Source: an uncultured Akkermansia sp.
GTDB taxonomy: Bacteria > Bacteroidota > Bacteroidia > Flavobacteriales_D > Crocinitomicaceae
DNA length: 64,000 nucleotides
Assembly (NCBI GenBank): GCA_964593935.1
Contig: CAZQKN010000007.1
Span: 74,004-138,003, forward strand
Direction: 5' to 3'
Part shown: piece by piece, positions 50,819 through 57,664 of the stretch
Numbering within the stretch: position 1 is the first letter of the stretch
How the letters are laid out: each line of letters begins with the position of its first letter
Position numbers and translations under genes: made by a program
The notes under the pieces: generated by a model
Databases searched by the model: none
What the model was told of the DNA's origin: nothing
Seen by the model: the letters and a program-made list of their open reading frames with translations, nothing else

Positions 50819-51788
50819 TTATTTATTAATCCCGACATTCAATCCGAAAGCTGCATAAAAATTCTTAAAGTTGCCTGATGAACTTGTTTTAAACAAAAGG
50901 CCAGGACGTGATCCGAATTCGAGGCGAAGGCCCAAACCAATTAAATTTACCCAATCTGCATCAACGATAAAACGGTACCCAAAATTTCGAGTCGCGGGTT
51001 TTTCTACTAATTTAAATGTAGATCCGCCATATTCAGGTTTATCAATTAAACTGTTCTCAACATTTACTACAGGCATCCATAGGGCTTCAACAAAAACATC
51101 AACCTTGTTTCGTACAGATTTTTTACCATATGCCTCTCCAGTCTCAGAGTTCCGTGCGTTGATAACAAAATTTTGTGACATGCTGATATGAACTTCGCCA
51201 GATAAGCGAGTACCAGAAAAATTACGTTCCATAATTAAGGGAATTGTATGATTTTCCGCTCAAATCAACGATACTGAACAGGGTGTCATATTTTTGATTT
51301 TCCCTGAAACTATTTAAATAATATCCTGCACTTGCTGTTACTCCAACTTTTCTAAGCGTTGTGGCAGGAGCCATTATGTATGTTTCGTTTGTTATGGTAT
51401 AGTAACCAATATTCGAACTCGTCCTTTTCAACGAGACTTTTACATCCTCCTTTTGTTCCTTAGATTGAAAGAAGAAACTTCCACGACCACAAAAATTTTG
51501 GGGATTTTTTTGAATTAAATTCATTGTTTGCTTTTGGACATTATCCCATTTTTGTTGGGTTTTTTGAAATTCACCCGAAATCGTTATTCGTTTACCCAAA
51601 TTGAAAGATCCATTGAAATAGTAACCTGAACGGTTATTGCCAGAACTGTAATCCCCATCCATAATGACTCCACCTTTAAAATGAACAGACATCTGAGGGT
51701 TATCCTTTAAAACCTCATAGTTAATTTTTTGACACAATGCGTTAGTAATTTACGCAAACATTAAAGCAGTTAAACTATATTTTTTCAT
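50819..51788 (-). pseudogene. disrupted paralog of the 52794-53648 secreted protein (in-frame TAA plus frameshift)
   Basis: The ATG at 51788 encodes MKKYSLTALMFA, then TAA (51750-51752), then the same frame continues ITNALCQKINYEVLKDNP. The frame switches at 51222-51232 (..SLNYGT* / MERNFSGTR..). The paralog reads straight through both points (QYKVLKNDP; DDNYGNSFRSFG). Confidence 0.7.
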
Positions 51789-51803
51789 GTCATACTTTTT
51801 TAA

Positions 51804-51811
51804 CAAAACTA
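51804..51811 (-). promoter_or_regulatory. candidate -7 box TAGTTTTG of the pseudogene promoter
   Basis: Plus strand reads CAAAACTA. It is 15 nt upstream of the ATG at 51788 and exactly 20 nt from the operator arm. Confidence 0.45.
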
Positions 51812-51831
51812 TACTGGTGCGATTCTGCTGG

Positions 51832-51853
51832 AAATACGCAATACTGTGTAATT
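51832..51853. promoter_or_regulatory. degenerate copy of the palindromic operator
   Basis: AAATACGCA-ATAC-TGTGTAATT. The promoter-proximal arm is perfect. The distal arm matches 7/9. Confidence 0.4.
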
Positions 51854-51989
51854 ACACAATAAACTTTATAACCGGACTAGCTGTTTTTTAGAAAAATAAA
51901 ATCTTAAACTCTTCGAAACGATTTTGAGTATGCCTCTCTGAAAGAAACTTTTCAGAAGAATTCATTAAGGGGGCGAAACCAATATACTG

Positions 51990-52790
51990 TCAGTTATTCT
52001 TATCCAACATGAATCTAAAACCCAAGAACAAATCCATGCGCTTACCGGAGGAAGGGATTGGACCACGATTATTTATCCAGCTGTAATGGCTACACGCATA
52101 GAGTCCCCACTTCGACTGCAGTTCTAATTTTACATTTGCAAAATCCGGATCCGGATAAAAAGCATTAGGCTGATAGGCATCTTCCACATTGATCGGCCGC
52201 GCATAAGTGAATCCATACCCGCCGGATAGTTCGGCTTGCAAAAAATCGGAAAGAACGAAATTGACCATTAAATGTGGCCCGACCGTCAGATACCAACCCT
52301 GCGGATTCAGTGTGAATTGTCCATTCAATGAGTCAACAGTATACCTGGCGGCGTACAGATAATCCGTATGTGAAACTCCTATGGAATACTGTATTCGTCC
52401 ATTGGGTTTGTTCAGATTCACATCCAGATCGATCTGAGCGAGTAATGTGCCTAAATACGTGTTTTCCTCAACATAGATATCCTTTTCTCCCTTTGTGACA
52501 GATCGGAGGAGACTAACAAGATCTCCTATACTTTTGTTGTTGATGTTCAATCGAATCCCTCCCCTATCCGTATCAACCCTCTTATAATTGAAATCAAAGG
52601 ATAACGCATTGACCGTGTGTCTTTCCGGATATGGAGCCACCTTGTTTCGCAACATACTGAGTGTCGGATTAAAACCAAGATAGGATTCGTTTGCTCCGTA
52701 ACGTTCTCCCAAATAGGTGAATGATTCAACACTCGTTTGTGATTGCGCTGTAATACTCAAAAGGATCAGAAATACAAAGCACACCCTCAT
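51990..52790 (-). CDS. hypothetical secreted beta-rich protein
   Basis: 266 aa with signal peptide MRVCFVFLILLSITAQSQ. It starts 3 nt after the upstream gene's stop, so it is probably co-transcribed. I recognise no family. Confidence 0.75.
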   Translation of the reverse strand: MRVCFVFLILLSITAQSQTSVESFTYLGERYGANESYLGFNPTLSMLRNKVAPYPERHTVNALSFDFNYKRVDTDRGGIRLNINNKSIGDLVSLLRSVTKGEKDIYVEENTYLGTLLAQIDLDVNLNKPNGRIQYSIGVSHTDYLYAARYTVDSLNGQFTLNPQGWYLTVGPHLMVNFVLSDFLQAELSGGYGFTYARPINVEDAYQPNAFYPDPDFANVKLELQSKWGLYACSHYSWINNRGPIPSSGKRMDLFLGFRFMLDKNN

Positions 52791-52793
52791 TGA

Positions 52794-53648
52794 TCAGCGT
52801 TTCAAGATTGAAATCCCGATACCAGCTGACAAATTCCATCCCTGATGTGGTCTGTATCCAAAACTTGCCGTACCGCTTATACCGAATTTCTTTCCGGTAA
52901 ACTCTTTCCTTTCAACCTGATACAAACGGTACCCGAAACGAAAACCAAATGGCTGTGATTTATGCTTTTCGCTCACACCTGTTTCAATGCTTTTGAAGGT
53001 GTTAACAGGAAGAACGAGGACATCAAAGAATACATCACTACCAAAAGATCTGAAACTATTCCCATAATTGTCGTCATATATAACGATGTTGGTGATCTTC
53101 CTCGACAGGATCCCGGCATAGAAACCGATACTTGTGTGCGCAAGAAGATTATCCGTCTCCGTAAATTCGAATGCGCTTCGCTTAAAGATTGCACCACCCT
53201 GGATCCCCAACTTTTTGCGCAACGTTGCAGGGACAGACAACGATTTCGTCATCGTATAGGTTGTGTTACCAACAGATTTGTCTTTTGAATCCAGAACAAC
53301 ATCCACCGTTCTGTTGAAGGTGTTATCGGTAAGAAAGAGTTGAATTCCGGCATTGACATCTAAATTACCCGGAAACTGTTTGTTCAGTAATCTTCCCAAT
53401 ACCATGTAACTCTTATTGATCTGATAAGCCACATTCAGATTGTTTGTGAGCTTTGAGTATCCGAAAAGTCCGATGTTCAGCGACAGATTATCGACAAATT
53501 TTGTGTTGACATCCATGTTCATGAATTCGAGGTTCAGGGAATTTTTCGGCTCGGCCGGATCGTTCTTTAGGACCTTGTATTGGATCAGGTCCTGACTGAA
53601 CAGGTAGCTTGCAGAAAGCATTAAAATGGTAGACAGTGCTGTTTTCAT
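52794..53648 (-). CDS. hypothetical secreted beta-rich (outer-membrane-like) protein, intact paralog of the pseudogene
   Basis: 284 aa with signal peptide MKTALSTILMLSASYLFSQ. It shares QYKVLKNDP, PATLRKKLG, NYGNSF and FGFRFGY blocks with the 50819-51788 reading frames. Confidence 0.78.
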   Translation of the reverse strand: MKTALSTILMLSASYLFSQDLIQYKVLKNDPAEPKNSLNLEFMNMDVNTKFVDNLSLNIGLFGYSKLTNNLNVAYQINKSYMVLGRLLNKQFPGNLDVNAGIQLFLTDNTFNRTVDVVLDSKDKSVGNTTYTMTKSLSVPATLRKKLGIQGGAIFKRSAFEFTETDNLLAHTSIGFYAGILSRKITNIVIYDDNYGNSFRSFGSDVFFDVLVLPVNTFKSIETGVSEKHKSQPFGFRFGYRLYQVERKEFTGKKFGISGTASFGYRPHQGWNLSAGIGISILKR

Positions 53649-53670
53649 TTTTAAAGTTTTAATTACACTG

Positions 53671-53678
53671 CAAAGGTC
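53671..53678 (-). promoter_or_regulatory. candidate -7 box GACCTTTG (7/8 match)
   Basis: Plus strand reads CAAAGGTC. It is 22 nt upstream of the ATG at 53648 and exactly 20 nt from the operator arm. Confidence 0.4.
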
Positions 53679-53698
53679 AGTTGTTGCCGGTCATTGTG

Positions 53699-53720
53699 AA
53701 ATACGCAACCTTGCGTATAT
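53699..53720. promoter_or_regulatory. palindromic operator copy 2
   Basis: AAATACGCA-ACCT-TGCGTATAT. The arms match 8/9. The core ATACGCAA-CC-TTGCGTAT is a perfect inverted repeat. Confidence 0.55.
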
Positions 53721-53825
53721 TTAAGTACGATGTACTGAACATAAGATCAAATCAGGGTTTTTAAAGACCATCTTTCATTTTGATTTTCAATGTATCAAGC
53801 CTCAACAGGTGAAATAATGAATTTC

Positions 53826-53870
53826 GAAAACAAAAGAGCCGTCATGAGATGAACATCTCTTTACGGCTTT
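53826..53870 (-). terminator. rho-independent terminator after the BNR/T9SS gene
   Basis: On the minus strand: AGCCGT aaa GAGATG tt CATCTC atg ACGGCT, followed by CTTTTGTTTTC. Confidence 0.6.
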
Positions 53871-53914
53871 GGATCGTAATTCGACTAATATAACAGTCCT
53901 GTATGCGTCTTTGC

Positions 53915-55147
53915 TTATTCAACAATTACTTTACTCAGACTTGTGTTTCCACTGTTTGTAATGATCTCAAGGTAATAACACCCCGTTGAAAGTTCCCCTA
54001 ATTGTATTGTATGTTCTTTAACATTATCAAGTTTGTCACAGAACAATACTCTACACGAATGATCCATAATCCGCAGCGAGATCATCGGGTCAGTAGATTC
54101 CAGATTTAAAAGGTCATTCGCAGGGTTGGGAAACGCCTTCACATCGAAATTTTTTAATTCGGATAATGCATTAAAATCTCCTTTCCGATAAACTCCTTCT
54201 CCTGGAACACTTATATCAAATGCATAGAAAACATAACCATTATATTCTGTGATCTCAGCTTCATTTAAGGCTTGAGGAAGGTCACCGGTGATGTTTGTCC
54301 AGTTAGCACCTTCGTTAGAGGAGACAAAAAGGCTGTCTATTTCACCAAATACTCCAAAGGCGTTTTTCATGTAAATATTTCCTGAAACCGAATTTCGATA
54401 GACGAGCTTTGGTTTAATCCCCCAAAATGGAGGGGTTGTAATTGTTGTCCAACTATTCCCTTGATCTGTACTTTTATATCTTCCAGTGGATTGATCCATG
54501 TAATAGAGGTCCGTCCCCAAACGAAACAATTGATACCCTGCAAGATGACTGGTTGAAATCCCTGTATTTGATTGTACCCAAGTGTCTCCATAGTCATCGG
54601 ATACATAAACCCCACCATTTATGGTGCATGCCAAAAGACGATTGCCAATAGACTCTAACTTCTCAACATTGAGTACCGTAAGTCCATTATTTATTTGGAT
54701 CCAGTTTGTCCCTCCATCAGAGGATCGGTAAACTCCTGAATTTGTTGTGTAACAATAGAGCTTATCGGATAAGGCATAAAAGCCGTCAACCACAGAACTT
54801 TGTGGTCCTCCAACTGCCACTTGCCAGGTTGCCCCATCATCTTCAGTGTAATAGACATCGTTAGAAATTACATTAAGACCAAAGAATAACCGGTTACCAT
54901 AGGAAAAAGTTGAAACAGGAAGGCCAAAAGCCACCGGTGGAGCAATTTCCGACCAATTGTTACCGTAATCATCACTGGTGTACAATTTATAGCCCCCCAA
55001 TGTACCCGTATACATTTTCCCATTATGTCCGGATATTGTTAAAACACCAAATGAAAGATCTTGTATACCATTATTTACCTGCGACCATTGGCTAAAACAT
55101 AAATTACCCAAGAGTAGAGCACTTGCAGAAAAAAATATCTTTTTCAT
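53915..55147 (-). CDS. BNR/Asp-box repeat beta-propeller protein with T9SS C-terminal sorting domain
   Basis: Has a signal peptide and six S/TxDxGxxW boxes: SDDYGNNW, TEDDGATW, SSDGGTNW, SDDYGDTW, STDQGNSW and SSNEGANW. The tail is VKAFPNPANDLLNL...GCYYLEIITNSG. Confidence 0.88.
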   Translation of the reverse strand: MKKIFFSASALLLGNLCFSQWSQVNNGIQDLSFGVLTISGHNGKMYTGTLGGYKLYTSDDYGNNWSEIAPPVAFGLPVSTFSYGNRLFFGLNVISNDVYYTEDDGATWQVAVGGPQSSVVDGFYALSDKLYCYTTNSGVYRSSDGGTNWIQINNGLTVLNVEKLESIGNRLLACTINGGVYVSDDYGDTWVQSNTGISTSHLAGYQLFRLGTDLYYMDQSTGRYKSTDQGNSWTTITTPPFWGIKPKLVYRNSVSGNIYMKNAFGVFGEIDSLFVSSNEGANWTNITGDLPQALNEAEITEYNGYVFYAFDISVPGEGVYRKGDFNALSELKNFDVKAFPNPANDLLNLESTDPMISLRIMDHSCRVLFCDKLDNVKEHTIQLGELSTGCYYLEIITNSGNTSLSKVIVE

Positions 55148-55195
55148 ATTTTGCTTGATTAAATTTTTAACTTTTCACTTTAGAATTACTCCGGA

Positions 55196-55203
55196 CAAAA
55201 TTA
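55196..55203 (-). promoter_or_regulatory. candidate -7 box TAATTTTG for the BNR/T9SS gene
   Basis: Plus strand reads CAAAATTA. It is 48 nt upstream of the ATG at 55147 and exactly 20 nt from the operator arm. Confidence 0.5.
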
Positions 55204-55223
55204 CCGTTGCATCCATTGATGCG

Positions 55224-55245
55224 AAATACGCAGTGTTGCGTATTT
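55224..55245. promoter_or_regulatory. palindromic operator copy 1 (perfect), shared by the divergent promoters
   Basis: AAATACGCA-GTGT-TGCGTATTT with perfect 9-bp arms. It is centred between two TAATTTTG boxes. Confidence 0.6.
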
Positions 55246-55265
55246 TAAAGGCGGTGGATACCGAT

Positions 55266-55273
55266 TAATTTTG
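55266..55273 (+). promoter_or_regulatory. candidate -7 box TAATTTTG for the response regulator / kinase operon
   Basis: It is 13 nt upstream of the ATG at 55287 and exactly 20 nt from the operator arm. Confidence 0.5.
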
Positions 55274-55286
55274 TCAAAAAATTGAT

Positions 55287-55934
55287 ATGATCCAAGTTGC
55301 TATCGTTGAGGATATAACGCGAATTGCTGAGGCTTTAAAAGCTAAGATCCTACTTTCACCTGATTTCAAATTGAAATTCACTGCGGCAAATGGGGAGGAA
55401 ATGATCAGGTTATTGGAGCGTGACCACAATGTGGATGTGATAATCATGGATATTAACATGCCGGTAATGAATGGTATAGAAGCCACAACTCAGATCACGA
55501 CCCGCTGGCCTCAGATCAAGATCCTTATGTCTTCTGTTTTCGATGATGAACAAAACCTGTTCGACGCTATGATGGCCGGAGCTTGCGGTTATTTGCTGAA
55601 GGATGAGGTCCCACAGAAGATCCACCGCTCAATTTTTGAAGCTTTGGAAGGTGGAATGCCAATGAGCGCAATGATCGCCAAAAAGGCCTTGCAGCTTATT
55701 CGCAGGTCTTCCCCATCAGTCAATTCACTGGACCAAATCGATTATCAACTGACCGAAAGAGAAGTGCAAGTGCTTGAACAGTTATCTAAGGGCCTGAGCT
55801 ATGAGCAAATTGCGGATAATTTATTTATCAGTTATGGTACAGTGCGAAAACATGTAGAGAATATCTACCGAAAGTTGGAAGTTAATAATCGAACGGGAGC
55901 ATTGGATAAAGGTAAAAAAGGAGGAATAATTTAA
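55287..55934 (+). CDS. NarL/FixJ-family response regulator (receiver + LuxR-type HTH)
   Basis: Receiver residues are E8/D9, D55 (IIMDINMP) and K (GYLLKD). The HTH region is LTEREVQVLEQLSKGLSYEQIADNLFISYGTVRKHVENIYRKL. Confidence 0.93.
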   Translation: MIQVAIVEDITRIAEALKAKILLSPDFKLKFTAANGEEMIRLLERDHNVDVIIMDINMPVMNGIEATTQITTRWPQIKILMSSVFDDEQNLFDAMMAGACGYLLKDEVPQKIHRSIFEALEGGMPMSAMIAKKALQLIRRSSPSVNSLDQIDYQLTEREVQVLEQLSKGLSYEQIADNLFISYGTVRKHVENIYRKLEVNNRTGALDKGKKGGII

Positions 55935-55936
55935 GT

Positions 55937-57664
55937 ATGCGTTTAAGTTTTTGGATCGTTTTTGTCAGAAGCAGGATGAAGAAAAGTGCTTTAGTAGCCA
56001 TTATTTTACTGCTAGTTCCTGTTTGTACAATTAGCCAAAACAGAAAACAGATCGACTCATTGAACCATCTTCCTTTCGAACAAAAAGTAAATGATCCCGG
56101 TAATTTGGTTCAAACTTATCTGACCTGTGCGGCACAGGCAAAAAAAACCGGCTACACCTTCGGAGAAATGGAAGCTTACGAGAACGTTAGCTTACTCTAT
56201 TATTACCTCGGAAAATATGATCTTGAGCTCCAATATGCGCTGCGCTCCATTGCCGGTTACAAGAGAATGGGGAAAATAGATAAGCTTGCGCGGTCGTACG
56301 GAGAATTGGGTTATCGCATGAAACGTCGTGATCTCAACAATGCGGTTTATTACATGCGAAAAAGCCTTCAATTGGCCGAGTCAAAAGGTTACGAAAGAAT
56401 TCTCATGGGGCTGTATGATAATTATGGCGTTCTTAAAGAAATGCAGCTTGACTATGACAGTGCTTACATCTATTATACCCGTGGACACGAATTAAAGCGA
56501 AAATACAAAGACCGATCGGGCCTGCCGTACAGCCTAAATAATTTGGGAGGCCTGATGGTACTTCAGGATAAACTAGATCAGGCGAAACCGTATTTTGAAG
56601 AGGCTTTGCAGCTAAGACTCAAACTGCGCGATACACTTGGGGTTTGTGAAACCTTTTTGATACTCTCTGATATTTACATTGCTGAAAGTGATCCCAATTC
56701 AGCAAGGAGTAATTTAGATTTTGTGATTGAGTATGCCGGCAAGAAAGAACTGTATTTTCTTTTGTCCTCGGCATACCAAAAACGAGCCAAATTAAACGAA
56801 CAAGAGGGTAAACTCAAGGATGCCTTGTTTGATGAACGAAATGGTATTCGCTTCAAGGATAGTCTTGCCAATGAATCGATGCGCAATAAGCTGGCTGAGC
56901 TTCAAGTTCAGTTCGAAACACAGGAAAAAGAATACGAATTGCTCAATGAACGCCTAATAACCAACAGCTTCAGAAACTGGTTATGGGTGCTTGGATTAAC
57001 GGTAGTGGTGGTTTTACTTTCTGCGCTTACTATCCAATTCAGAAGGACATCAGAAAAGCGTCGTCTGGAATTGCAAAATTTAAAGGACCTTGAATTTGAA
57101 CGAATGCGCATTTCCCGCGACCTGCATGACAATATTGGGGCCGAGCTAACGCTCATTACATCTAAACTTGATATCAAAGCTGCAACAACGAACAAACCCG
57201 AAGACCAATCTGAACTGAGCGATCTTGCAACACTGAGCAGAGGTGCTTCTGTTCTTTTGAGAGAAACGATCTGGTCGATCCGACAGGATGCGATCAAAAA
57301 AGCGGAGCTGCTCGAAAAAATAGAACAGTTTGCAATGAAGCGATCTCATGACAAACTCAAAATCAATTCTGAAATAGAATGTGATGGATCACAAAAAATT
57401 GCTCCGGCAAATGCATTACATCTCTACAGGATAGCACAGGAGGCGATAAACAACTCCATTAAATATTCAAAAGCAACGGAAGTGACTGTAAAGTTCAGTG
57501 AGAACAGTTTTACAGTTTCGGACAATGGAGAAGGGTTTGACCTTGAGAATTATACACCGGGATACGGAGTTCAAAACATGAAGCAAAGGACAGAGGAAAT
57601 GGGTGCCGATTTCGAAATCAAATCAGATCCATCGGGTACGTCTATTCAGATATTGAATTACTGA
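55937..57664 (+). CDS. sensor histidine kinase with extracytoplasmic TPR-like domain (HisKA_3 + HATPase_c)
   Basis: Has a signal/TM segment, TPR-like repeats of about 300 aa, and a second TM (WLWVLGLTVVVVLLSALTI). The H-box is RISRDLHDNIGAEL, the N box NNSIKYS, and the G boxes DNGEGF and GYGVQNM. An alternative ATG is at 55976. Confidence 0.9.
   Translation: MRLSFWIVFVRSRMKKSALVAIILLLVPVCTISQNRKQIDSLNHLPFEQKVNDPGNLVQTYLTCAAQAKKTGYTFGEMEAYENVSLLYYYLGKYDLELQYALRSIAGYKRMGKIDKLARSYGELGYRMKRRDLNNAVYYMRKSLQLAESKGYERILMGLYDNYGVLKEMQLDYDSAYIYYTRGHELKRKYKDRSGLPYSLNNLGGLMVLQDKLDQAKPYFEEALQLRLKLRDTLGVCETFLILSDIYIAESDPNSARSNLDFVIEYAGKKELYFLLSSAYQKRAKLNEQEGKLKDALFDERNGIRFKDSLANESMRNKLAELQVQFETQEKEYELLNERLITNSFRNWLWVLGLTVVVVLLSALTIQFRRTSEKRRLELQNLKDLEFERMRISRDLHDNIGAELTLITSKLDIKAATTNKPEDQSELSDLATLSRGASVLLRETIWSIRQDAIKKAELLEKIEQFAMKRSHDKLKINSEIECDGSQKIAPANALHLYRIAQEAINNSIKYSKATEVTVKFSENSFTVSDNGEGFDLENYTPGYGVQNMKQRTEEMGADFEIKSDPSGTSIQILNY

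What the first reader, a model, noticed from the sequence alone, without database searches (positions are those of the whole stretch)
51804..55273. Shared 22-bp palindrome at a fixed 20-nt distance from -7 boxes defines a candidate regulon of an adjacent LuxR-type two-component system
There are three copies of one inverted repeat:
- 55224-55245: AAATACGCA-gtgt-TGCGTATTT (9/9).
- 53699-53720: AAATACGCA-acct-TGCGTATAT (8/9).
- 51832-51853: AAATACGCA-atac-TGTGTAATT (7/9).
They precede the BNR/T9SS gene (ATG 55147), the two-gene unit 53648-51990, and the pseudogene (ATG 51788). The first copy also precedes the divergent response regulator (ATG 55287).
In all four promoters, exactly 20 nt separate the proximal 9-mer arm from an octamer matching the Bacteroidota -7 consensus TAnnTTTG. 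The octamers are TAATTTTG twice, TAGTTTTG, and GACCTTTG. None of the four 20-nt spacers contains a TTG -33 element.
This geometry puts the dyad centre at roughly -41 to -45, the classic class II activator position. NarL/FixJ-type regulators bind inverted repeats as dimers.
Inference: the neighbouring response regulator and TPR sensor kinase autoregulate and also control this small set of secreted or outer-membrane proteins. The signal and the physiological role are unknown.
Basis: partly seen in the sequence, partly recalled or inferred. Interest (0 to 1): 0.72.

Follow-up and report, generated by a model that had tools for sequence, protein, structure and literature searches.

The report
Conserved operator of a Bacteroidota two-component system
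A 22-bp palindrome repeated three times next to a sensor-kinase/regulator gene pair is very probably that regulator's DNA docking site, and the same site, at the same 20-base distance from the promoter box, recurs with this regulator family across the phylum Bacteroidota, in front of genes for cell-surface proteins.

Summary
Three copies of AAATACGCA-N4-TGCGTATTT lie within 3.4 kb (0.01 expected in 64 kb). All four flanking promoters have a -7-type octamer exactly 20 nt from the proximal arm.

Three independent comparisons support the interpretation.
- Loci fetched through regulator orthologs (61-86% identity) keep the palindrome even where the neighbouring genes differ.
Of 58 Bacteroidota sites with enough context, 31 lie within 400 bp of a regulator homolog, against 0 in other phyla. 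The TTTG box core sits at the 19-20-nt offset in 52 of 138 Bacteroidota flanks, against 2 of 100 elsewhere.
- All 8 loci fetched through the main target family carry the operator at 20 nt.

Arm deviations are never compensated (0 of 83), so this is a protein site and not an RNA hairpin.

One refinement: the proximal arm's last bases occupy the -33 element position. When the arms differ, the TTG-ending arm faces the promoter (16 to 0).

Most likely mechanism: the phosphorylated NarL-type regulator binds as a dimer centred at about -43.5 and activates its own operon and genes for outer-membrane or secreted proteins. Repression is not excluded. I found no description of it in the held literature. 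It is a new member of a known kind.

The parts
55224..55245 (.). Operator O1: perfect 9-4-9 palindrome AAATACGCAgtgtTGCGTATTT, shared by the divergent RR-HK and BNR promoters. Its centre lies at about -43.5 from both predicted transcription starts.
   Evidence: Orthologous sites occupy the same intergenic position in L001, L036, L042, L046, L129 and L130.
55266..55273 (+). -7 box TAATTTTG of the RR-HK operon promoter, 20 nt from O1. Predicted TSS about 55278, giving a 9-nt leader.
   Evidence: Box position -12 to -5 per PMC9723704. RR promoters with the same layout occur in 18 loci.
55196..55203 (-). -7 box TAATTTTG (minus strand) of the BNR gene promoter, 20 nt from O1. Predicted TSS about 55191.
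   Evidence: The same arrangement is seen in L001, L042 and L046.
55287..55934 (+). NarL/FixJ-type response regulator (215 aa) with phospho-acceptor D55. It is the presumed operator-binding protein.
   Evidence: Pfam Response_reg 1.8e-22 and GerE 1.2e-18. Closest solved structures are VraR, NarL and DevR. The recognition helix stays 76-100% identical across orders.
55937..57664 (+). Sensor histidine kinase: signal or anchor segment (aa 14-36), about 310-aa extracytoplasmic TPR domain, TM helix at 345-369, then cytoplasmic HisKA_3 and HATPase_c. The real start is probably M14 (55976).
   Evidence: Weak resemblance to P. gingivalis FimS (NCBIfam 56 bits against a cutoff of 600).
53915..55147 (-). 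Target 1: secreted BNR/Sortilin-type beta-propeller protein with a T9SS C-terminal sorting domain (410 aa).
   Evidence: The same family lies downstream of operators in 7 loci, including Bacteroidales and Paludibacter.
53826..53869 (-). Hairpin plus U-run after the BNR gene. It is a probable intrinsic terminator that separates the BNR unit from the U284-U266 unit.
   Evidence: MFE -26.3 kcal/mol, z = -3.5.
53699..53720 (.). Operator O2: AAATACGCAacctTGCGTATAT. The promoter-proximal arm is perfect; the distal arm has 1 mismatch.
   Evidence: Orthologous sites lie upstream of U284-family genes in 21 loci.
53671..53678 (-). -7-like box GACCTTTG (minus strand) of the U284-U266 promoter, 20 nt from O2. 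Its first base is non-consensus, as in all 21 U284-type promoters seen.
52794..53648 (-). Target 2a: U284, a signal-peptide protein of a small uncharacterised family (N-terminal xINYKxxxDxP motif), predicted to be an outer-membrane beta-barrel.
   Evidence: No Pfam or NCBIfam hit. 184 clusters among 1.84 billion representatives. AF2 model pLDDT 72.5, pTM 0.67. Every listed PDB match is an outer-membrane beta-barrel, with low TM-scores of 0.14-0.35.
51990..52790 (-). Target 2b: U266, a second signal-peptide protein co-transcribed with U284, predicted to be an outer-membrane beta-barrel.
   Evidence: AF2 model pLDDT 66.7, pTM 0.67. The top PDB matches are outer-membrane barrels such as Pla, OmpW, OpcA and FadL. 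The pair is conserved next to the RR in L001, L007, L008, L013, L029, L042 and L078.
51832..51853 (.). Operator O3: AAATACGCAatacTGTGTAATT. The proximal arm is perfect; the distal arm is decayed (7/9).
51804..51811 (-). -7 box TAGTTTTG (minus strand) of the pseudogene promoter, 20 nt from O3.
   Evidence: Intact orthologs in L005, L053 and L088 have operator, 20 nt, then TAnTTTTG.
50819..51788 (-). Target 3: pseudogene of the 322-aa subtype of the U284 family, with a stop at codon 13 and a frameshift near 51222-51232.
   Evidence: 72% identity over the full length to the intact L005 9011-9976 protein.

Best explanation
The 22-bp dyad is the operator of the adjacent NarL/FixJ-type response regulator. 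Its core is ATACGCA-N4-TGCGTAT, with half-site centres 11 bp apart, so both lie on one face of the helix.

Proposed mechanism:
1. The membrane kinase senses an unknown periplasmic ligand through its ~310-aa TPR ectodomain and phosphorylates D55 of the regulator.
2. The regulator dimer binds the dyad. The dyad lies exactly 20 nt upstream of the sigma-A -7 box, so it is centred at about -43.5. Its promoter-proximal half-site covers -41 to -33, which includes the -33 element position.
3. From there the dimer most likely recruits or stabilises RNA polymerase, as in class II activation.
4. This switches on its own operon (positive feedback) and a small set of envelope genes.

In this genome the envelope genes are a T9SS-secreted BNR beta-propeller, a pair of predicted outer-membrane beta-barrels, and a now-dead third barrel gene. 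One palindrome (O1) serves two divergent promoters symmetrically.

Status of each step:
- Shown by sequence and comparison: the site, its spacing, and its co-occurrence with the regulator and the targets.
- Inferred: that this regulator binds the site, that phosphorylation controls binding, that the effect is activation, and the positions of the transcription starts.
For: Operator-regulator link
- Not chance: 3 sites against 0.01 expected, all within 3.4 kb beside the RR gene. No further composite promoters above background in 64 kb.
- The site travels with the RR. Orthologs at 86, 74, 72, 65 and 61% identity all keep it even where the neighbours differ. L003 has an unrelated 578-aa divergent gene. 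L005 has three sites before three co-directional genes. L007 and L008 have two tandem sites, one per divergent promoter.
Of 58 Bacteroidota sites with enough context, 31 lie within 400 bp of an RR homolog (26-91% identity; 38% or more outside the Flavobacteriaceae subgroup of side finding 1). None does in other phyla.
- Reciprocal test: 8 of 8 loci fetched through the U284 family have the operator upstream at 20 nt.
- The RR recognition helix ISYGTVRKHxENIYRKL stays 76-100% identical where the receiver domain falls to 38-44%.
- Arm deviations: 0 compensated, 7 wobble, 76 pair-breaking.

Promoter geometry
- The TTTG box core lies at offset 24 in 43 Bacteroidota flanks and at offset 23 in 9, of 138, against about 1 per other offset. 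In other phyla it is 2 of 100.
- When the arms differ, the TTG-ending arm faces the promoter (16 to 0, p = 3e-5).

Evidence for activation
- The phasing is strict.
- U284-type promoters have a non-consensus first box base in 21 of 21 loci.
- The related Flavobacteriaceae sRNA promoters all carry TAnnTTTA.
- The nearest studied analogue, FimR, is an activator that binds promoters directly (PMC1974823).
Against: - There is no experimental datum: no binding assay, no mapped TSS and no expression data for any member.
- The fixed spacing could be imposed by sigma-A alone. The arm end doubles as the -33 element, so the -33/-7 spacing requirement would fix it, and then it says nothing about the sign of regulation. 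A site covering -33 is also where a repressor could sit.
- Many RR promoters have consensus TAnnTTTG boxes, and 27 of 64 promoters have TTG at the arm end. Some of these could therefore be active without an activator.
- One ortholog (L009, 63% identity) has only a degenerate site with 5 mismatches.
Confidence: 0.68

Rival explanations
1. Same operator and same regulator, but the regulator represses. Its dimer occupies -54 to -33 and blocks sigma-A region 4 from the -33 element, so the signal turns the envelope genes and the TCS operon off or on by release. The fixed 20-nt spacing then reflects only the -33/-7 spacing, because the arm end is itself the -33 element.
For: - The proximal arm covers the -33 position.
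- The arm facing the promoter is selected to end in TTG, a sigma contact (16 to 0).
- Many RR promoters carry consensus TAnnTTTG boxes and could fire unaided.
- NarL-family regulators are known to repress at some promoters (general knowledge).
Against: - A repressor has no need for a single invariant position in 60+ promoters across several orders. Operators over the -7 box or the start site would work equally well, yet none is seen.
- Target promoters are systematically sub-consensus: first box base non-T in 21 of 21 U284-type promoters, and TAnnTTTA in 8 of 8 sRNA promoters. That fits activator dependence and is not what a derepressible strong promoter would look like.
- Positive autoregulation is the commoner design for two-component systems, and FimR is an activator.
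Confidence: 0.22
2. The palindrome is bound by a different transcription factor encoded elsewhere. Its proximity to the response-regulator gene would then arise because that gene is one of the factor's targets.
For: No binding data exist. 27 of 58 Bacteroidota sites with enough context have no RR homolog within 400 bp.
Against: - Sites adjoin RR homologs across several orders and changing gene contexts (31 of 58 against 0 in other phyla).
- The RR's recognition helix is selectively conserved.
- A dyad with half-sites one helical turn apart suits a GerE-type HTH dimer.
- No other regulator gene recurs in these loci.
- Distal sites are expected for any regulon.
Confidence: 0.06
3. The palindrome acts as an RNA hairpin: an intrinsic terminator or a leader structure. 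In loci ordered HK-RR-palindrome it follows a stop codon and precedes a T-run.
For: - The 9-bp stem folds at -9 to -11 kcal/mol for the perfect copy.
- In Flavobacterium and Cytophagales loci it lies 8-40 nt after the RR stop codon and is followed by T's.
Against: - 0 compensatory changes against 76 pair-breaking ones in 51 imperfect sites.
- The sequence itself is conserved across a phylum, and the stem pairing is not maintained when it varies.
- In this window all three copies lie upstream of the predicted starts, in promoter regions. O1 lies between two divergent genes, where no terminator is needed.
- The distance to the -7 box is fixed.
Confidence: 0.02
4. The three copies are a chance occurrence or a dispersed repeat (REP or MITE-like) with no regulatory role.
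For: None beyond their being short repeats.
Against: - 0.01 expected against 3 observed.
- The flanks are unrelated. Only the 22 bp and the box are shared (one search shows no conservation in the spacer).
- The copies are conserved at orthologous promoters down to 40% protein identity.
Confidence: 0.01

Closest known systems
FimS/FimR of Porphyromonas gingivalis (Bacteroidota)
   Same: - The kinase has a large periplasmic multi-TPR sensor domain between an N-terminal membrane segment and a TM helix, and its signal is unknown (PMC11053733).
- The regulator is a positive regulator that binds target promoters directly and controls cell-surface structures (PMC1974823).
- The kinase here matches the NCBIfam FimS model over residues 118-520 (E = 1.9e-15).
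   Different: - It is not an ortholog: 56 bits against the 600-bit equivalog cutoff.
- The papers read define no consensus operator for FimR.
- FimR's targets are fimbrial genes. Here they are beta-barrel, BNR/T9SS and PD40-OmpA proteins.
- I could not test whether P. gingivalis carries this dyad.
DosR/DevR of Mycobacterium tuberculosis (recalled from established literature, not re-read here)
   Same: - A NarL-family regulator. DevR is among the closest solved structures (3c3w, E = 6e-19).
- It binds about 20-bp palindromes as a dimer.
- The promoter-proximal site overlaps the -35 region.
- It activates its own operon and divergent target genes.
   Different: - Different phylum, sigma factor and promoter grammar.
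- A different, GC-rich box sequence.
- Cytoplasmic GAF/haem sensor kinases rather than a periplasmic TPR sensor.
NarL 7-2-7 heptamer sites of Escherichia coli (recalled)
   Same: - The best NCBIfam match of the regulator is NarL (E = 6e-34, below cutoff).
- A HisKA_3-type partner kinase.
- Inverted heptamer half-sites bound by a GerE-type HTH dimer.
   Different: - 7-4-7 spacing (ATACGCA-N4-TGCGTAT) rather than 7-2-7 TACYYMT.
- A single fixed position relative to the promoter, unlike the varied NarL site arrangements.
- Not an ortholog: 117 bits against a cutoff of 250.
Class II CRP/FNR-type promoters, including a single shared site for divergent promoters (malX-malI; recalled)
   Same: - A 22-bp dyad overlaps the upstream promoter element and is centred just beyond -40.
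- One dyad serves two divergent promoters symmetrically. Here the predicted starts are 87 bp apart and the centre is at -43.5 from each.
   Different: - A different activator fold (GerE HTH response regulator rather than CRP).
- A Bacteroidota sigma-A -33/-7 promoter rather than -35/-10.
- Centre at -43.5 rather than -41.5.
- Contact with polymerase is untested.

Membership tests
NarL/FixJ (LuxR-type) response regulators | N-terminal receiver domain with a conserved phospho-acceptor aspartate | tested here: met
   Pfam Response_reg E = 1.8e-22 over residues 4-116. D55 lies in the motif IIMDINMP and is invariant in 13 aligned orthologs. The acidic pair E8-D9 is present.
NarL/FixJ (LuxR-type) response regulators | C-terminal GerE/LuxR-type four-helix HTH domain | tested here: met
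   Pfam GerE E = 1.2e-18 over residues 154-206. Full-length matches to the VraR, NarL, DevR and DesR structures.
NarL/FixJ (LuxR-type) response regulators | Cognate kinase of the HisKA_3 (NarX/UhpB/LiaS-like) class encoded alongside | tested here: met
   The HK starts 3 nt after the RR stop codon. HisKA_3 E = 2.2e-10 and HATPase_c E = 3.9e-10.
NarL/FixJ (LuxR-type) response regulators | Binds inverted-repeat DNA as a phosphorylation-dependent dimer | not testable with these tools
   Only indirect support: dyad symmetry, half-site centres 11 bp apart, co-occurrence with the gene and a conserved recognition helix.
NarL or FimS/FimR orthologs (specific equivalogs) | Score above the curated equivalog cutoff | tested here: not met
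   NarL 117 bits against 250. FimS 56 bits against 600. The system works like these but is a separate family.
Bacteroidota sigma-A promoter | TAnnTTTG box at -12 to -5, with a weaker TTTG/TTG element near -33 | tested here: met
   Three of the four boxes match TAnnTTTG. The fourth is GACCTTTG. The proximal arm supplies TTT at the -33 position. In 64 related promoters A (57/64) and TTTG (required for selection) define the box, and the arm end is TTG in 27. Geometry per PMC9723704 and PMC7366714. Transcription starts are not mapped.
Class II activator-dependent promoter | Activator site overlaps the upstream promoter element at a fixed helical phase just upstream of -40 | tested here: inconclusive
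   The position is -43.5 relative to predicted, not mapped, starts. The phasing is strict (43 flanks at 20 nt and 9 at 19 nt, of 138). The same overlap is compatible with repression.
Class II activator-dependent promoter | Direct activator contact with sigma region 4 or the alpha subunit, and activator-dependent transcription | not testable with these tools
   This needs in vitro transcription or genetics.
Intrinsic terminator / structured RNA | Stem pairing maintained by compensatory substitutions | tested here: not met
   0 compensated, 7 wobble and 76 broken among arm deviations in 51 imperfect sites.

The most novel reading that the evidence does not exclude
The TPR-kinase/NarL-type regulator pair and its ATACGCA-N4-TGCGTAT operator would be an ancient, phylum-wide envelope-remodelling circuit of Bacteroidota with a hard-wired class II promoter module (dyad, 20 nt, -7 box). 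It would control a previously unrecognised pair of outer-membrane beta-barrels and T9SS cargo. In Flavobacteriaceae it would have been rewired to drive conserved small RNAs, giving a Gac/Rsm-like cascade in a phylum where both transcription activation geometry and sRNA regulation are poorly understood.
Probability: 0.3. Interest if true: 0.75.

Novelty: new member of a known kind. Interest (0 to 1): 0.55.

Why it matters
**Why the gap matters.** Gene regulation in Bacteroidota is far less mapped than in Proteobacteria or Firmicutes. The phylum uses an unusual primary sigma factor with -33/-7 promoters. Very few activator-promoter geometries are defined for it. TPR-sensor kinases of the FimS type still have no known signal.

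**What this finding provides.**
- A precise and testable operator.
- A strict spacing rule that says where the regulator must sit relative to sigma-A.
- A conserved target set of secreted and outer-membrane proteins of unknown function.

**How it can be used.**
- It lets regulon members be predicted in hundreds of genomes, including cultured Flavobacterium, Pedobacter/Mucilaginibacter, Pelobium and Mariniflexile strains.
- It offers a clean model promoter for studying transcription activation in this phylum.
- It links two orphan beta-barrel families, and candidate small RNAs in Flavobacteriaceae, to a signalling pathway.

It does not reveal a new kind of mechanism.

Tried and rejected
- **Literature searches** for the operator string and for a Bacteroidota TPR-kinase/LuxR regulator operator returned only primer noise or unrelated papers. 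The held library lacks many subscription journals, so 'undescribed' is provisional.
- **FimR operator:** the papers read give no consensus.
- **Sigma-70 promoter and terminator scan** of the region was uninformative (18 promoter-like sites against 19 expected; 6 terminator-like against 5.5). That is expected for a Bacteroidota genome.
- **Broad U284 alignment (A3)** was too divergent for the search for related loci. A closer one (A4) worked.
- **Word-based homology search** for U284 and U266 found only close relatives, so the structure models rest on shallow alignments. They support only the fold class (outer-membrane beta-barrel), with TM-scores of 0.45 or less.
- **Terminator after U266:** none found (z = +0.76).
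- **RNA-hairpin reading:** rejected.
- **Further weak sites in the window:** none above background.

Full report
**Observation.** The pattern AAATACGCA-N4-TGCGTATTT has three matches in the 64-kb window at up to 3 mismatches, against 0.01 expected. No further match appears at up to 4 mismatches. All three lie within 3.4 kb, beside a response-regulator gene. Each of the four flanking promoters has an octamer of the Bacteroidota -7 type exactly 20 nt from the nearer arm. That octamer class occurs at only 0.00063 per position in the window.

**Genes.**
- 55287-55934 encodes a NarL/FixJ-type response regulator (receiver plus GerE HTH, D55).
- 55937-57664 encodes a kinase with an N-terminal membrane segment, a ~310-aa extracytoplasmic TPR region, one TM helix, and cytoplasmic HisKA_3 and ATPase domains.
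- 53915-55147 (minus strand) encodes a BNR/Sortilin beta-propeller with a T9SS sorting domain.
- 52794-53648 and 51990-52790 (minus strand) encode two signal-peptide proteins, U284 and U266, with no family match.
- 50819-51788 (minus strand) is a pseudogene with a stop at codon 13 and a frameshift. It is 72% identical to an intact 322-aa ortholog.
- A hairpin plus U-run after the BNR gene separates it from the U284-U266 unit, so each unit needs its own promoter.

**Test 1, anchored on the regulator.** Orthologs at 61-86% identity were located in metagenome assemblies and scanned.
- L001 (86%) has the same synteny and both sites.
- L003 (74%) has different neighbours but keeps the dyad between the regulator gene and an unrelated divergent gene.
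- L005 (72%) has three dyads in front of three consecutive genes upstream of the regulator gene.
- L007 and L008 (65% and 61%) have two tandem dyads in the divergent region. Each lies exactly 20 nt from its own box.
- L009 (63%) has only a degenerate copy, again 20 nt from a box-like octamer.

So the site follows the regulator and is independent of the neighbouring genes.

**Test 2, anchored on the site.** I scanned 185,579 reference genomes for the near-perfect dyad. Of these, 67 are Bacteroidota from at least five orders. The remainder look like scattered chance hits.
- Of 58 Bacteroidota sites with enough context, 31 lie within 400 bp of a homolog of this regulator. None of the sites in other phyla does.
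- In Bacteroidota the TTTG core of the box lies at offset 24 in 43 flanks and at offset 23 in 9, of 138, against about one per other offset. In other phyla it is 2 of 100, which is background.

The 20-nt rule is therefore phylum-wide.

**Test 3, anchored on the target.** Loci were fetched from metagenomes through the U284 family alone. All 8 that include upstream DNA carry the dyad 20 nt from a box in front of the U284-like gene. Most also have a further dyad after U266 in front of a third gene.

**Nature of the site.**
- Among 51 imperfect sites, deviations from the consensus arms are never compensated: 0 compensated, 7 wobble, 76 pair-breaking. Each half-site is therefore conserved as sequence, as expected for protein recognition and not for an RNA stem.
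- The strongest core is ATACGCA-N4-TGCGTAT. The half-site centres are 11 bp apart.
- The regulator's recognition helix, ISYGTVRKHxENIYRKL, stays 76-100% identical in orthologs whose receiver domains are only 38-44% identical.

**Promoter geometry.**
- The sigma-A box spans -12 to -5 (PMC9723704). The proximal arm therefore spans -41 to -33 and the dyad centre is at -43.5. For O1 this holds for both divergent promoters, whose predicted starts are 87 bp apart.
- The 20-nt spacer has no conserved base.
- However, the arm's last three bases occupy the -33 element position. Among sites whose two arms differ, the arm ending in TTG is the one facing the promoter (16 to 0, p = 3e-5). The operator and the -33 element are therefore fused.
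- In the window all four proximal arms are perfect. The mismatches are confined to the distal arms.

**Regulon.** Genes downstream of dyad-plus-box promoters cluster as follows:
- the regulator gene itself (18 loci, with ATG 4-25 nt after the box in 17 of them);
- the U284 family, including the window's pseudogene (17 loci);
- BNR/Sortilin T9SS proteins (7);
- PD40+OmpA proteins (5);
- FGE-sulfatase-like proteins in Flavobacterium (4);
- assorted singletons, most with an N-terminal signal peptide and several with a T9SS sorting domain.

U284 and U266 give all-beta AF2 models (pTM 0.67). The top structural matches of both are outer-membrane barrels, but with low TM-scores, so only the fold class is supported. 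The U284 family is small, with 184 clusters at 50% identity among 1.84 billion representatives.

**Mechanism.** The best reading is that the phosphorylated regulator dimer binds at -43.5 and activates transcription in class II fashion, with positive autoregulation. Four things support activation:
- the strict phasing;
- the systematically sub-consensus boxes of target promoters, with the first base non-T in 21 of 21 U284-type promoters and TAnnTTTA in 8 of 8 related sRNA promoters;
- the general habit of two-component systems to autoregulate positively;
- the activator role of FimR.

The main caveat is that a site fused to the -33 element would show fixed spacing whatever its sign, and it could equally occlude sigma. 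I put repression at about 0.2.

**Comparison with known systems.**
- The proteins are ordinary members of the NarL/FixJ and HisKA_3 classes. They are not orthologs of NarL or FimS/FimR, since their scores fall far below the curated cutoffs.
- Functionally the system resembles FimS/FimR (periplasmic TPR sensing, direct activation of surface-structure genes) and DosR (palindrome overlapping the upstream promoter element, autoregulation, divergent targets).
- I found no description of this operator in the held literature. That library is incomplete.

**Verdict.** The finding extends from one locus to a phylum-wide operator/promoter module. It is a new, well-defined member of a familiar kind of system and does not represent a new kind. 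Its value lies in making an unstudied signalling family and its orphan envelope targets directly testable.

Noticed in passing
L025:2462-2700 (Confluentibacter sediminis); also L033, L034, L043, L045, L054, L106, L108: In eight Flavobacteriaceae genomes a perfect copy of the same palindrome lies just after a more distant LuxR-type response-regulator gene (26-30% identity). It is exactly 20 nt upstream of a TAnnTTTA box. About 5 nt after the box begins a conserved ~70-nt unit, GCTATTAATTAGTTCTTAGGGAGAAT..., which ends in a hairpin plus T-run whose stem shows 4 compensatory pairs. It has no ORF and no Rfam match. Four genomes carry a second tandem copy. This is a candidate regulator-driven small RNA, with logic like GacA and RsmY/Z.
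   Followed up: partly
window 50819-51853: The third target is a decaying gene, with a stop at codon 13 and a frameshift near 51222-51232. It belongs to the 322-aa subtype, which is intact in L005, L053 and L088. Its operator keeps a perfect proximal arm, but the distal arm has decayed to 7/9. In the close relative L001 the gene is absent altogether.
   Followed up: yes
window 51990-53648; L007:8135-9859; L008:8133-9847: The U284+U266 gene pair is the most constant companion of this two-component system. Both proteins are predicted outer-membrane beta-barrels with no Pfam or NCBIfam family. U284-type promoters never begin their box with T (G or C in 21 of 21 loci), whereas the 322-aa-subtype promoters have TAnTTTTG.
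   Followed up: partly
L007:9910-9958 and L008:9910-9958: More distant relatives use two tandem operators 5 nt apart (centres 27 bp apart), one per divergent promoter. The window instead has a single shared palindrome. The regulator-side copy is a distinct variant, AAATACGTAtattGTCGTATKG.
   Followed up: partly
window 55937-55976: The kinase ORF as listed begins 3 nt after the regulator's stop codon. Its first 13 codons precede a typical signal or anchor sequence (MKKSALVAIILLLVPVC...), so the true start is probably M14 at 55976.
   Followed up: no
L025:15-2461: In Confluentibacter the regulator upstream of the candidate sRNA is preceded by a CHAT-domain protein and a retropepsin-like aspartyl protease, with no histidine kinase next to it. 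It may be an orphan regulator with a different input.
   Followed up: no
window 53826-53869 (minus strand): There is a strong hairpin plus U-run terminator after the BNR/T9SS gene (z = -3.5). No comparable terminator follows U266.
   Followed up: yes
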